NCBI GenBank assembly: GCA_964486045.1
Contig: CAZALK010000012.1
Location: 111,206 to 175,205, forward strand
Source of the DNA: an uncultured archaeon
GTDB taxonomy: Archaea; Asgardarchaeota; Lokiarchaeia; Sigyniarchaeales; SOKP01
Direction of reading: 5' to 3'
DNA: 64,000 nt
In this document: piece by piece, positions 971 to 3,595 of the stretch
How the letters are laid out: every line of letters starts with the position of its first letter
Position numbering within the stretch: position 1 is the first letter of the stretch
Program-made: the position numbers and the translations under genes
The notes under the pieces: generated by a model
Told to the model about the DNA's origin: nothing
Seen by the model: only the letters and a program-made list of their open reading frames with translations
Databases searched by the model: none

Positions 971-1484
971 CTATTTTATTACAGTTGGTTTTCTTATTAT
1001 TGGTAATGTTTATCCATGTCTTTTACTATAAAATTAAAAATAATAGTTAATTTAACTTAAATCAAGAATTAATTACAAAATTTCCTTTATTTTACCCAAT
1101 CCCCTATATTATTAAAATTAAGTTTAAAATTACTAACTATTCAAAATTGCAAAAACTCATAGTGTTACGTCTCAGATTTTGATCGAATTTTTTAATTGTT
1201 CAAAGAGTTTCTCAATTTAATTCATTCTGAGGAAATTCTGAGACTTTTGATGATTTAAATCTTGGAATCCAACTAAAATTGCCTATCCATAAAAAGAACC
1301 TAACTTGCACGAGATTGATCAATTTCATAATTTCGAATTTTGTCGTTCAATTTTTTTTATTTTTATCCCAACAAAAGCATGAGAATATCAAAATCTTTAA
1401 ATATCCAAAAGATCAATATCTATATAATAAATTCTTTAAAAATAACAAAAATTAACAAAAAGTATCACTACAAAATAAATAATT

Positions 1485-1490
1485 GGAGGA
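1485..1490 (+). promoter_or_regulatory. Shine-Dalgarno-like site of the histone gene
   Basis: GGAGGA ending 7 nt before ATG 1498. Confidence 0.7.
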
Positions 1491-1497
1491 ATAAAAA

Positions 1498-1773
1498 ATG
1501 GCTGGATCAGATTACATTTCTTGGTCACCAATAAGACGTCTCATGAAGCACAACGGGGCTGTAAGTCAATAAACCTCTTTTTGACTGGCTAAAATCGTTG
1601 CGCGAGATGCCGTTAATGAGTTAGTTGATTGGATGGGTCAATCAGCAGAAACACTCACAAAAACCGCGTTAACTTTAACTAAACACTCTAAAATTCTTAT
1701 AGGATTCCTATAAAAATAGGAAAGAAAGAAAGTAACGCGTAATGACATCTTATTGGCCATCAAGTATTTTTAA
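1498..1773 (+). CDS. Archaeal histone (HMf-like fold, 71 aa) in three exons: 1498-1562, 1593-1692, 1723-1773
   Basis: Spliced translation MAGSDYISWSPIRRLMKHNGAVIVARDAVNELVDWMGQSAETLTKTALTLTKHSKRKKVTRNDILLAIKYF has histone-fold hallmarks (PIRRLMK, xVARDA, HSKRKKV..xDI); SD upstream, T-tract downstream. Confidence 0.92.
1563..1592 (+). other. BHB-type intron 1 in histone CDS (30 nt)
   Basis: Central helix GGCT(1557-60)/GGCT(1587-90); bulge GTA and A-rich 3' bulge; inner stem AGTCAA/TTGACT; outer stem CAACGG/TCGTTG; carries in-frame TAA and TGA. Confidence 0.85.
1693..1722 (+). other. BHB-type intron 2 in histone CDS (30 nt)
   Basis: Central helix TCTA(1687-90)/TAGG(1717-20); bulges AAA and AAA; inner stem TTATAGG/CCTATAA; carries in-frame TAA and TAG. 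Confidence 0.85.
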
Positions 1774-1823
1774 AGGGATTTTTGAATTAGGTAATTTACT
1801 TAATTCATTAAAATATCTAATAC

Positions 1824-1847
1824 TCTTTTTTTTATCTTCTTTTTTTT
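1824..1847 (+). terminator. Oligo-T tracts, probable archaeal intrinsic terminator of the histone gene
   Basis: Two long T runs about 50-75 nt after the stop codon. Confidence 0.45.
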
Positions 1848-1893
1848 CAAAATTTAATCCTAAATAGATCATTTTATCGTTCTGTTTGAATTT

Positions 1894-2046
1894 ATGCTTA
1901 TAGTACTTAATCTCTGTATAGGGTGCGGGGTTTGCGCTTCTAATTGTCCGTCTGGAGCAATTATGCTAGAAAAGGTTCTAGATAATATCCCTGCTAGAAA
2001 TCAAACAGAAATGAGAATAAAATATATGGAAGAGAGAGTTTATTAA
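1894..2046 (+). pseudogene. 50-aa ORF with one 4Fe-4S motif; probably the C-terminal remnant of a larger ferredoxin-domain gene
   Basis: MLIVLNLCIGCGVCASNCPSGAIMLEK...; one CxxCxxCxxxCP and no second motif. Confidence 0.55.
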
Positions 2047-2056
2047 AGCTCTTTTT

Positions 2057-3595
2057 TTATTGTGCAATGCTCAAGTAAGGAGGTTTCATAATTCCCTCCC
2101 ACGCCACGCGCTCCTTTCCGTACGGATCATCAACCACTTTAATCTCCTTTCCTAAAAACATCGTACTCCTCTTTTCAGTCTCATATTTGGGCCACTCAGG
2201 TATCCCACTGTGAGACGGATTTCCAGTTCGGGCAAACGCAATCCATGCATCCATAATTTTTTCACTGAGTTTTTCCGCATCTTCACCTTTACCTGAAAAT
2301 AGATTCCAACCTGGTTCCTCCAACATTCCAAATACAAAGGGTATTTCTGTAATGTGACATGCTCCGAGATTCGCACCCATAAAGGGAGATGGCCACGTAA
2401 ACAAATACATGTAAGTATTGGAATTTTGTACTGATTGAACCTCTGCCGTTCGAATTGCAGAAATACGAAATTCAAGATCGGTGGAAAAAGCATCGAGGAC
2501 CTCCTGAGCAGAAAGAGATCCTTCATCCTTCCTTGTTTCTCTATATGACGTTATGAGGCGTTCTGCTTTATCTCCGTTTTCACCGAGGGATGTCACAATA
2601 TTTTTTATCCTATTATGCATCATTTCTTCATCTGCTTCTTTGAAGTTGGGATTAAATGTTTTCCATATCGTGGATTCATTCAAATTTGTTCCAACTAGCA
2701 GATCAACTCCTGCTGCGGTGCCCTTACGAATTAAATCCAGGGGGTGTTCGGGAATATGTTCACCATCAATGAAAGGAGCGATTGAAAAAGGCCAAGGTTT
2801 TATTGCTCCATTTTCTAACGAAATTTTTGATTGAGCATTTACGAGCTCGTAAGCAGAAATTTTCCGGAGCTCTTCGATATCACTCTTTTCAATCCCTACT
2901 TCTGAAATTACACGCTCAGTTATATCTTTACCCTCAGAAGCCCTATAACTTACAGGATTGCATGCACCGCTTTGAGCAATTACATGGTGAAATAAACCCT
3001 TAGCTTCAGGCATAACTAACAGTGTTGAAACTGCCATACCACCTGCACTTTCACCAAAGATTGTAACATTGTCAGCATCCCCTCCGAAATTCTCGATGTT
3101 ATCGCGAATCCATTTTAAAGCCGTAATTTGATCAAGCATTCCTACGTTTGAAGTGACACCTGGTATAAAAGAGAAACCCAGAGAATTTAATCTGTAGTTT
3201 ATTGTAACTACTACCACATTTCCCCTTTTAACTAAGGATGTACCATCGTATATTCGTCCGCTACCAGTATTAAACCCACCACCATGGATCCAAACCATTA
3301 CAGGTCGTTTATTCTGATCGGGGGAAGGTGTCCAAATATTCAAGTTAAGACAATCAGGTTCACTTTGCGGGTTTTGGGGAAATAACAATACAGGAGGGAT
3401 CATTTGAGGACACACAGGTCCAAATTCTGTGGCATAAAATACTCCCGGAAATCGCGTTGCGGGAATTGGGGGTTTAAAACGCAAATCCCCCACCAGTCTT
3501 TTGGTATAAGGTATTCCTTTAAATATTTCTATACCCTCATCTTTAATACCTTGAATTTTTCCCGCTTTTGTTTCAATAATTTCGGTTCTTACCAT
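2057..3595 (-). CDS. Carboxylesterase type B (PnbA-like)
   Basis: WIHGGGF oxyanion motif, FGESAG nucleophile elbow, catalytic His in GACH. Confidence 0.95.
   Translation of the reverse strand: MVRTEIIETKAGKIQGIKDEGIEIFKGIPYTKRLVGDLRFKPPIPATRFPGVFYATEFGPVCPQMIPPVLLFPQNPQSEPDCLNLNIWTPSPDQNKRPVMVWIHGGGFNTGSGRIYDGTSLVKRGNVVVVTINYRLNSLGFSFIPGVTSNVGMLDQITALKWIRDNIENFGGDADNVTIFGESAGGMAVSTLLVMPEAKGLFHHVIAQSGACNPVSYRASEGKDITERVISEVGIEKSDIEELRKISAYELVNAQSKISLENGAIKPWPFSIAPFIDGEHIPEHPLDLIRKGTAAGVDLLVGTNLNESTIWKTFNPNFKEADEEMMHNRIKNIVTSLGENGDKAERLITSYRETRKDEGSLSAQEVLDAFSTDLEFRISAIRTAEVQSVQNSNTYMYLFTWPSPFMGANLGACHITEIPFVFGMLEEPGWNLFSGKGEDAEKLSEKIMDAWIAFARTGNPSHSGIPEWPKYETEKRSTMFLGKEIKVVDDPYGKERVAWEGIMKPPYLSIAQ

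What the first reader, a model, noticed from the sequence alone, without database searches (positions are those of the whole stretch)
1498..1773. Histone gene split by two 30-nt bulge-helix-bulge introns
Seen: a complete 71-aa histone is obtained only by removing 1563-1592 and 1693-1722. Each insert carries two in-frame stops. Each folds into a 4-bp helix flanked by bulges with an inner hairpin: GGCT/GGCT with GTA and an A-rich bulge, and TCTA/TAGG with AAA and AAA. Cutting after the second nucleotide of each bulge, the known rule for the archaeal tRNA splicing endonuclease EndA, gives GA-V-IVAR and HSK-RKK exactly. The exons look intact and an SD site is present, so this is not decay. Known: BHB mRNA introns are rare in archaea, with crenarchaeal cbf5 the classic case. 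Inference: this is a multi-exon chromatin gene spliced by the tRNA machinery (EndA plus RtcB) in a eukaryote-related lineage, and ORF callers would miss it.
Basis: partly seen in the sequence, partly recalled or inferred. Interest (0 to 1): 0.97.

Follow-up and report, generated by a model that had tools for sequence, protein, structure and literature searches.

The report
Histone gene with two tRNA-type introns
A histone gene of a Loki-type Asgard archaeon is interrupted by two 30-base inserts with the shape and cut sites of introns removed by the tRNA-splicing enzymes, which papers report inside a coding sequence for only one other archaeal gene, cbf5; no RNA data were available to confirm the splicing.

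Summary
Removing window 1563-1592 and 1693-1722 gives a 71-aa histone-fold protein (Pfam PF00808). It is 85-94% identical, end to end, to uninterrupted genes in same-genus relatives.

Both inserts fit the archaeal bulge-helix-bulge (BHB) rule: a 4-bp helix, 3-nt bulges, and a cut after the second bulge base. Four lines of evidence argue against decay or artefact:
- **Selection.** The nearest relative has introns at the same two sites, one of them 31 nt long. Its exons differ from the window's by 24 synonymous and 6 non-synonymous codon changes (dN/dS about 0.08).
- **Covariation.** That relative's intron helices carry compensatory changes.
- **Other sites.** Within this 213-nt gene family the genus shows five intron positions, and all obey the same rule.
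- **Other genes.** The genome has catalytic and structural EndA subunits and RtcB. Its only RNA polymerase A' gene and an EF-2-type gene carry the same kind of 30-nt insert.

The interrupted DNA is identical in contigs from two samples.

No RNA data exist, so splicing is inferred, not seen. This scan has noted such introns before, elsewhere in this genome and in at least 34 other Asgard genomes. I found no paper describing them. Verdict: very probably real EndA/RtcB-spliced mRNA introns.

The parts
1486..1490 (+). Shine-Dalgarno-like GGAGG, 7 nt before the ATG
   Evidence: Read directly. The same GTGGAGGA element precedes the orthologs.
1498..1562 (+). Exon 1: codons 1-21 plus 2 nt of codon 22 (the Val codon is split GT|A)
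   Evidence: Colinear with intact orthologs.
1563..1592 (+). Intron 1: 30 nt, in-frame TAA and TGA, phase 2
   Evidence: Orthologous intron in L130 with compensatory stem changes.
1551..1600 (+). BHB motif 1: outer helix 1551-1556/1595-1600; central helix 1557-1560/1587-1590; bulges 1561-1563 and 1591-1594; inner hairpin 1564-1569/1581-1586
   Evidence: Minimum-free-energy fold of 1545-1605. H pair probability 0.57 in the full transcript.
1593..1692 (+). Exon 2 (100 nt)
1693..1722 (+). Intron 2: 30 nt, in-frame TAA and TAG, phase 0
   Evidence: The orthologous intron in L130 is 31 nt, so that gene is frameshifted unless spliced.
1687..1723 (+). BHB motif 2 (relaxed, HBh'): central helix 1687-1690/1717-1720; bulges 1691-1693 and 1721-1723; inner stem 1694-1703/1707-1716 with one mismatch
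   Evidence: Not the minimum-energy fold (-4.8 against -7.0 kcal/mol).
1723..1773 (+). Exon 3 including stop TAA 1771-1773
1826..1847 (+). Two T8 runs downstream, a possible archaeal oligo-T terminator
   Evidence: Read directly. Function is inferred and was not tested.

Best explanation
The locus is a working archaeal histone gene made of three exons. Its pre-mRNA folds into two bulge-helix-bulge motifs. The heterotetrameric tRNA-splicing endonuclease (EndA alpha and beta) cuts each motif between the second and third base of each 3-nt bulge. RtcB then joins the exons. This removes 30 nt twice and yields a 216-nt reading frame for a 71-aa histone-fold protein.

Shown here: the gene anatomy, the motifs, purifying selection, covariation, presence of the enzymes, and the same insert type in essential single-copy genes.

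Inferred: the cleavage and ligation themselves. The introns are derived insertions. Most copies in the genus, and all copies in more distant families, lack them. At least four lineages gained introns at five positions in this small gene.
For: 1. The spliced product is PF00808 at 35.1 bits. It is 85-94% identical over residues 1-71 to uninterrupted genes in 20+ same-genus genomes.

2. Intron 1's hBHBh' motif is the minimum-energy fold. Both introns obey the rule of a 4-bp helix, 3-nt bulges and a cut after bulge base 2. The rule is stated in PMC7714728 and PMC2738675.

3. Selection. The window gene and L130 are interrupted at the same two sites. They differ at 35 nt, as 24 synonymous and 6 non-synonymous codon changes (dN 0.078, dS 0.97). 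All other interrupted copies give dN/dS of 0.02-0.1 against their nearest intact copies.

4. Covariation.
- The intron 1 stem AGTCAA/TTGACT becomes GATAAG/TTTATC in L130, with three pairs changed on both sides.
- The intron 2 H helix TCTA/TAGG becomes GCTA/TAGT.
- At the Arg-codon site, CACG/CGTG in the C6 copy corresponds to TACG/CGTA in G007.
- In the three near-identical C6-type copies, all intron 1 differences fall in the 5-nt hairpin loop.

5. L130 intron 2 is 31 nt, so only removal by the BHB rule restores the frame.

6. 9 of 40 H pairs are G-U. They pair only in the sense RNA, not in the opposite strand.

7. There are five intron positions in this family, and H is 4/4 paired in all ten introns tabulated. 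That set is eight histone introns plus the RpoA' and EF-2 introns; the G019 variant of one histone intron has 3/4. Only 3.3% of mismatched combinations reach 4/4.

8. Machinery. Two PF01974 genes are present. By eye, one has the Tyr/His/Lys triad and the other lacks the His. RtcB is intact. Asgard EndA is the (alpha-beta)2 type with the broad-specificity L1 loop (PMC5829648).

9. Both copies of this histone subfamily in the genome are interrupted. The only RNA polymerase A' gene carries a 30-nt BHB insert whose removal restores CMGHFGH|IELARPV. An EF-2-type gene regains AH|IDHGKTT in the same way.

10. The interrupted DNA is identical in contigs from two runs, and no insert-free contig of this gene was seen there.
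Against: - No RNA evidence of any kind.
- Intron 2's BHB is 2.2 kcal/mol above the minimum-energy fold. Its H pair probability is only 0.11-0.15, and it has almost no outer helix.
- Intron 1 has a second possible register (GCTG/TGGC, 28 nt) that would break the frame. That register is not kept in L130.
- With the outer helix formed, intron 1's 3' bulge is 4 nt, not 3.
- My loose genome-wide scans give only a weak excess of 30-nt BHB sites over a mirror-geometry control (37 against 24; 9 against 2 at strict settings).
- The two DNA runs come from one study, and one may be the source of the assembly.
Confidence: 0.85

Rival explanations
1. A decaying pseudogene: two small insertions killed the gene, and the BHB-like folds are coincidental.
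For: Four in-frame stops. Gene callers produce no protein here. The loose BHB pattern is common by chance in this 31% GC genome.
Against: - dN/dS is about 0.08 between two copies that share both inserts.
- There are no other lesions.
- Start codon and SD are intact.
- The intron stems and H helices carry compensatory changes.
- Both subfamily copies in the genome are interrupted, while nearly every genus member keeps the subfamily.
- The same insert type sits in the sole RNA polymerase A' gene.
Confidence: 0.03
2. Programmed translational bypassing: ribosomes hop over the 30-nt hairpins, as in T4 gene 60 or yeast mitochondrial byps, and the RNA is not spliced.
For: The inserts are short, carry stops and contain hairpins. 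For intron 1, a take-off GCT (1558-1560) and an in-frame landing GCT (1588-1590) exist (read).
Against: - Intron 2 has no matching take-off and landing pair that stays in frame. Landing on AAA 1721-1723 runs into TAA (read).
- A hop at intron 1 would give Lys where orthologs have Val, Leu or Ile.
- The conserved feature is the 4-bp exon-intron helix with bulges 3' of it on each strand, not codon identity.
- L130's 31-nt insert fits the BHB rule exactly.
Confidence: 0.03
3. The inserts are removed from the RNA, but by another nuclease and ligase than EndA and RtcB. For example, a hairpin-triggered system analogous to IRE1/RtcB splicing of XBP1, or to the RtcB-dependent 'SOS splicing' of transposons.
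For: Nothing here identifies the enzyme. Intron 2's motif is weak. RtcB-dependent non-tRNA splicing triggered by paired repeats exists in animals (PMC12779559).
Against: The borders fall exactly where the EndA rule puts them in all ten introns examined, and the geometry is strand-specific. Crenarchaeal (alpha-beta)2 EndA is known to cut such relaxed motifs in cbf5 mRNA (PMC2738675). Asgard EndA is of the same type (PMC5829648).
Confidence: 0.06
4. An assembly or binning artefact: the inserts are not in the real genome.
For: The genome is a MAG with 7.8% estimated contamination.
Against: Contigs from two runs match 1400-1900 with no differences. Independent MAGs from other studies carry orthologous or analogous inserts: L130, L126, L127, L116 and L024.
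Confidence: 0.01

Closest known systems
cbf5 pre-mRNA BHB intron of Crenarchaeota (Desulfurococcales and Sulfolobales; Watanabe 2002; PMC2738675)
   Same: A short intron inside a protein-coding sequence. It has a (relaxed) bulge-helix-bulge motif, is cut between bulge bases 2 and 3, and depends on a heteromeric (alpha-beta)2 EndA. It is present or absent by lineage.
   Different: - The gene is a histone, and the phylum is Asgard.
- There are two introns in a 71-codon gene.
- There are five insertion sites in one genus.
- Ten of the eleven introns examined are exactly 30 nt and one is 31 nt.
- It is part of a set that also hits RNA polymerase A', EF-2 and other genes in the same genome.
- cbf5 splicing was shown by cDNA. 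Here no RNA evidence exists.
[quoted passage not shown]
   Same: The same predicted motif and enzymes. Gains are repeated and lineage-specific, with no known route of arrival.
   Different: The host is an mRNA, so splicing must be exact to the base to keep the frame. The central helix is built from coding sequence. That preprint does not treat protein-coding genes.
BHB intron in the 5' UTR of Haloferax volcanii HVO_1309 mRNA (PMC7714728)
   Same: An mRNA substrate of the archaeal splicing endonuclease.
   Different: That intron lies in the untranslated leader and does not interrupt the reading frame. The Haloferax case was confirmed in vivo and in vitro.
Unconventional splicing of XBP1/HAC1 mRNA (IRE1 plus RtcB or Trl1); from my own knowledge
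   Same: A very short intron (26 nt in XBP1) is removed from a coding mRNA without the spliceosome and ligated by a tRNA ligase. Removal changes what is translated.
   Different: The nuclease (IRE1) and the motif (two 7-nt stem-loops) are different. That system is regulatory and stress-induced. No regulation is known here.
Archaeal histones of the HMfA/HMfB type (Pfam PF00808)
   Same: A single histone fold of about 70 aa, with an RKK(V/I)T loop-2 motif and no tails.
   Different: Known archaeal histone genes are continuous. This one needs two splicing events.

Membership tests
Archaeal BHB (EndA-dependent) intron | 4-bp central helix flanked by two 3-nt bulges, each 3' of its helix strand | tested here: met
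   Intron 1: GGCT/GGCT, 5' bulge GTA, 3' bulge AAA(A); this is the minimum-energy fold. Intron 2: TCTA/TAGG, both bulges AAA, but not the minimum-energy fold.
Archaeal BHB (EndA-dependent) intron | Cutting between bulge bases 2 and 3 gives the correct mature sequence | tested here: met
   It yields GA-V-IVAR and HSK-RKK, in frame and as in uninterrupted orthologs. The same holds for the eight other introns checked.
Archaeal BHB (EndA-dependent) intron | Flanking helices (hBHBh'); relaxed forms lack one | tested here: met
   Intron 1 has a 6-bp outer and a 6-bp inner helix. Intron 2 has an inner stem only (HBh'), a form accepted by (alpha-beta)2 enzymes according to PMC5829648 and PMC2738675.
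Archaeal BHB (EndA-dependent) intron | Structure kept by compensatory change in relatives | tested here: met
   Window against L130: three double changes in the intron 1 stem, and the intron 2 H helix changes T-G to G-T. C6 against G007: H changes C-G to T-A. Few sequences were available, so no formal statistic was computed.
Archaeal BHB (EndA-dependent) intron | Splicing endonuclease and RtcB ligase encoded in the genome | tested here: met
   PF01974 twice (102 and 67 bits) and PF01139 at 557 bits, all without stops. The ORFs are 201 and 200 aa.
Archaeal BHB (EndA-dependent) intron | Spliced RNA, or the excised (often circular) intron, observed | not testable with these tools
   No RNA run was listed for this DNA.
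Archaeal histone (PF00808, HMf type) | Histone-fold profile match above the curated cut-off over the whole domain | tested here: met
   35.1 bits against 21.4; residues 10-68 match profile positions 6-65 of 65. This holds only for the spliced product. The own-genome profile search found four other histones and did not report this interrupted gene.
Archaeal histone (PF00808, HMf type) | DNA binding and dimer or hypernucleosome formation | not tested
   No structure or complex was predicted. Function is inferred from 85-94% identity to intact orthologs.
Programmed translational bypass (gene 60 / byp type) | Matching take-off and landing codons that keep the frame | tested here: not met
   Possible at intron 1 only. 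At intron 2 no in-frame pair exists (read).
Pseudogene | Relaxed selection (dN/dS near 1) and accumulating lesions | tested here: not met
   dN/dS is 0.02-0.1. There are no lesions other than the inserts.

The most novel reading that the evidence does not exclude
The 30-nt inserts are not isolated accidents. They may be members of an actively spreading class of mini-introns in Loki-type Asgard archaea.

Supporting observations:
- Five insertion sites arose in one 213-nt gene within one genus.
- Ten of eleven introns examined are exactly 30 nt and one is 31 nt, a near-fixed size.
- All fifteen tabulated 30-nt inserts have A at position 29, and the 3' bulge is AAA in nine of the ten analysed for it.
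- The window's intron 2 is 70% identical to the intron of the paralogous histone, which sits 17 nt further downstream and has only the 4-nt exon-pairing segment retargeted.

Together these suggest copying or sliding of introns between sites, for instance by reverse splicing. That would make this lineage a live model of intron gain in the closest relatives of eukaryotes.
Probability: 0.3. Interest if true: 0.92.

Novelty: new variant of a known kind. Interest (0 to 1): 0.8.

Why it matters
Published work treats endonuclease-spliced introns inside archaeal coding sequences as a single-gene curiosity (cbf5).

Here a chromatin protein of an Asgard archaeon needs two such splicing events. Its paralog needs two others, and the genome's only RNA polymerase A' gene needs one.

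If confirmed at the RNA level, three things follow:
- Routine mRNA splicing by the tRNA machinery exists in the prokaryotic lineage closest to eukaryotes.
- Introns are gained repeatedly on short evolutionary timescales.
- Standard gene callers silently drop essential genes from Asgard genomes, which biases gene-content and phylogenomic studies of eukaryogenesis.

It also makes one question testable: how do protein-free mini-introns arrive at new sites?

Tried and rejected
- **RNA evidence.** No RNA holder was listed for window 1300-2100 or 1440-1800. The single read-laying run therefore went to DNA contigs.
- **Exact look-up.** The spliced proteins of the window gene, L126 and L130 are not in a 15-billion-protein collection. 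So there is no cDNA-derived record, and no annotation of them either.
- **Structure-only genome scans.** Requiring H 4/4 plus an inner stem gave about 6,700 hits for every intron length, equal to a mirror-geometry control. Adding open-frame and codon-usage filters still gave no clear excess.
- **Coding-first scans.** Starting from in-frame stop clusters with coding flanks, or using strict structure thresholds, did show a small peak at 30 nt (37 against 24; 18 against 10 and 9 against 2).
- **Position weight matrix.** A matrix built from 15 introns did not enrich for new frame-restoring sites. The apparent base preferences at intron positions 9, 14, 15 and 17 are therefore not shown to define a sequence family.
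- **Repeat test.** Each intron sequence is unique in the genome, so they are not a repeated element by BLAST.
- **Rfam.** No match at 1200-2100.
- **Automatic intron solver.** It overfitted, so I replaced it with borders fixed by homology plus the BHB rule.
- **Rest of the window.** A scan for further interrupted genes gave nothing convincing.
- **Literature.** Six searches found no paper on BHB introns in Asgard protein-coding genes. The library does not hold most subscription journals.

Full report
**What is there**

Window 1498-1773 (+) starts with an ATG seven bases after a GGAGG. In that frame it is broken by four stops lying in two 30-nt stretches, 1563-1592 and 1693-1722. Removing exactly these stretches gives a 216-nt frame for a 71-aa protein. 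The protein matches the archaeal histone profile PF00808 over the whole domain (35.1 bits, cut-off 21.4). The window is part of a 5.18-Mb, 31% GC assembly. Its relatives are recorded as Promethearchaeota/Promethearchaeia, that is Loki-type Asgard archaea, from marine sediments.

**The spliced reading is the biologically real one**

A six-frame search of 40 related genomes found uninterrupted genes that match all 71 residues at 85-94% identity in most members of the same genus. A scan of one genome per species found 79 such loci.

A relative's contig in a third, independent run lacks both inserts. The interrupted form itself is identical in contigs from two runs of one study. So the inserts are in the DNA and are not an assembly slip.

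**The inserts have the intron shape**

Papers define the motif as a 4-bp helix flanked by two 3-nt bulges (PMC7714728), cut between the second and third bulge residues (PMC2738675).

- *Intron 1.* The minimum-free-energy fold of 1545-1605 is a textbook hBHBh'. It has a 6-bp outer helix, H GGCT/GGCT, 5' bulge GTA, a 6-bp inner hairpin and an A-run 3' bulge.
- *Intron 2.* H is TCTA/TAGG, both bulges are AAA, and the inner stem has 9 of 10 pairs. The fold is 2.2 kcal/mol above the minimum and has almost no outer helix, so it is a relaxed HBh' form.

The loose pattern alone is common by chance in this AT-rich genome. Shape alone would therefore prove little. The weight comes from the comparisons below.

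**Comparative evidence**

Seven of 74 complete copies of this histone subfamily are interrupted, at five different positions:

| Position | Exon context | Copies |
|---|---|---|
| a | GCTGT\|A | window, L130 |
| b | CTAAA\| | window, L130 |
| c | AAAC\|AT | second copy in the same genome (G000 C6:146563-146835), L126, L127 |
| d | ACGAG\| | the same three copies; also G007, with an unrelated intron sequence |
| e | GACGAT\| | G020 |

In all but one of these introns the 4 nt that lie two bases upstream of the cut pair 4/4 with the 4 nt that lie two bases before the intron's end; the L127 (G019) intron at position d has 3/4. Cutting after bulge base 2 then restores the frame and the conserved residues. 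Taking these introns plus two from other genes, H is 4/4 in ten of ten. Only 3.3% of mismatched exon/intron combinations reach 4/4. Nine of the 40 H pairs are G-U, which pair only in the sense transcript.

L130 is the nearest relative of the window gene and shares both intron sites.
- Its intron 1 differs at 12 of 30 bases but keeps the stem, through three pairs changed on both sides.
- Its intron 2 H helix changes T-G to G-T.
- Its intron 2 is 31 nt long, so that gene is frameshifted unless the intron is removed exactly as the rule predicts.

The exons of the two genes differ at 35 bases, but only 6 of the 30 changed codons alter the protein (dN 0.078, dS 0.97). The other interrupted copies give dN/dS of 0.02-0.1 against their nearest intact relatives. 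A gene that stayed under such selection while carrying the inserts must still be expressed as the spliced product.

**Machinery and genomic context**

The genome encodes two EndA paralogs of about 200 aa. By eye, one has the Tyr/His/Lys triad and the other lacks the His, which fits a catalytic alpha and a structural beta subunit. RtcB is intact. Asgard EndA is reported as the (alpha-beta)2 type with the L1 loop that confers broad substrate range (PMC5829648). The same enzyme type cuts the relaxed motif in crenarchaeal cbf5 mRNA (PMC2738675).

Both copies of this histone subfamily in the genome are interrupted.

Following leads from earlier notes of this scan, I verified two further cases:
- The genome's only RNA polymerase A' gene carries a 30-nt insert at C13:44101-44130, with H 4/4, inner 8/8 and outer 4/4. 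Its removal restores the conserved CMGHFGH|IELARPV.
- An EF-2-type gene regains its P-loop, AH|IDHGKTT, by removal of C13:92018-92047.

My own coding-first scan picked up further candidates. Among them, a thiolase is split next to its CASG motif and a nucleoside phosphorylase within DKHS|TGG. An organism cannot live without RNA polymerase, so this insert type must be removed in vivo.

**Evolution**

Intron-bearing copies sit in at least four places on a poorly resolved tree of the 74 copies. More distant families have only continuous genes. So the introns are gains.

The intron sequences are unique in the genome. However, the window's intron 2 and the paralog's intron at a site 17 nt downstream are 21/30 identical in register. 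The mean over 105 intron pairs is 11.6, with SD 3.0. This hints at copying or sliding, but I could not test it. A weight matrix from 15 introns did not find new cases.

**Rivals**

- *Pseudogene.* Excluded by selection, covariation and the RNA polymerase case.
- *Translational bypass.* Formally possible at intron 1 only, and there it would give Lys where relatives have Val, Leu or Ile. It fails at intron 2.
- *Another nuclease.* Cannot be excluded without biochemistry, but nothing calls for one.
- *Artefact.* Excluded by independent assemblies.

**What is missing**

There are no RNA data. All statements about cleavage and ligation are therefore inference from sequence, comparison and the published behaviour of the enzymes.

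**Novelty**

In the papers I could search, BHB introns inside archaeal coding sequences are described only for cbf5, plus one 5'-UTR case in Haloferax (PMC7714728, PMC2738675). A 2026 preprint on Asgard tRNA introns does not treat protein genes. This scan has noted the same kind of intron before, elsewhere in this genome and in at least 34 other genomes.

The histone case stands out for three reasons: two introns in 71 codons, five polymorphic sites within one genus, and an orthologous pair that gives clean selection and covariation evidence.

Noticed in passing
G000 C6:146563-146835 (L035:1001-1273): A second histone of the same subfamily in the same genome also has two 30-nt BHB introns, at other positions (inside the His codon of MKHNG and the Arg codon of ITRND). 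L126 and L127 share these. In this copy the usual stop is changed (TAA to TCA), giving a 77-aa product.
   Followed up: yes
G000 C13:44101-44130 (L134): The only RNA polymerase A' gene of the genome has a 30-nt BHB insert with an in-frame TAA. Removal restores CMGHFGH|IELARPV.
   Followed up: yes
G000 C13:92018-92047 (L047): An EF-2-type GTPase gene has a 30-nt BHB insert with three in-frame TAA just before the P-loop. Removal restores AH|IDHGKTT.
   Followed up: yes
G000 C3:186175-186204; C7:186723-186752 (-); C20:4147-4176 (-); C5:195271-195300; C1:759271-759300; C17:6250-6279: Further 30-nt BHB candidates that restore long coding frames. They include a thiolase split after CASGM, a nucleoside phosphorylase split in DKHS|TGG, an fwdA-like gene and two AIR-synthase-like genes. 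The gene names are judged from the junction peptides alone, by eye and partly from earlier notes of this scan; no homology search was run on these genes.
   Followed up: partly
window 1693-1722 compared with G000 C6:146775-146804: The two paralogs' introns sit 17 nt apart in the gene, yet are 21/30 identical in register. That is more alike than the truly orthologous intron 1 pair (18/30). The mean over 105 intron pairs is 11.6. Possible intron copying or sliding.
   Followed up: partly
15 introns of 30 nt: Position 29 is A in 15 of 15 and position 30 is A in 11 of 15. Positions 9 (A) and 17 (T) form a nearly constant pair closing a 7-nt loop. A weight matrix built on this did not find new introns.
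   Followed up: partly
whole genome G000: ARAGORN finds only 31 tRNA genes, 20 of them with an intron, in an assembly rated 99% complete. This suggests many tRNA genes are disrupted beyond what the tool can read.
   Followed up: no
L121, L076, L081, L097, L100, L108, L118: Contigs carrying this Loki-type histone at 84-91% identity are titled Nanopelagicaceae bacterium, Odin-, Hermod-, Thor- or Hodarchaeota. These are probably mis-binned or mislabelled records.
   Followed up: no
window 1894-2046 (+): A 50-aa ORF with a CIGCGVCASNCP 4Fe-4S ferredoxin-type motif lies directly downstream of the histone gene. It may be a small ferredoxin or a fragment.
   Followed up: no
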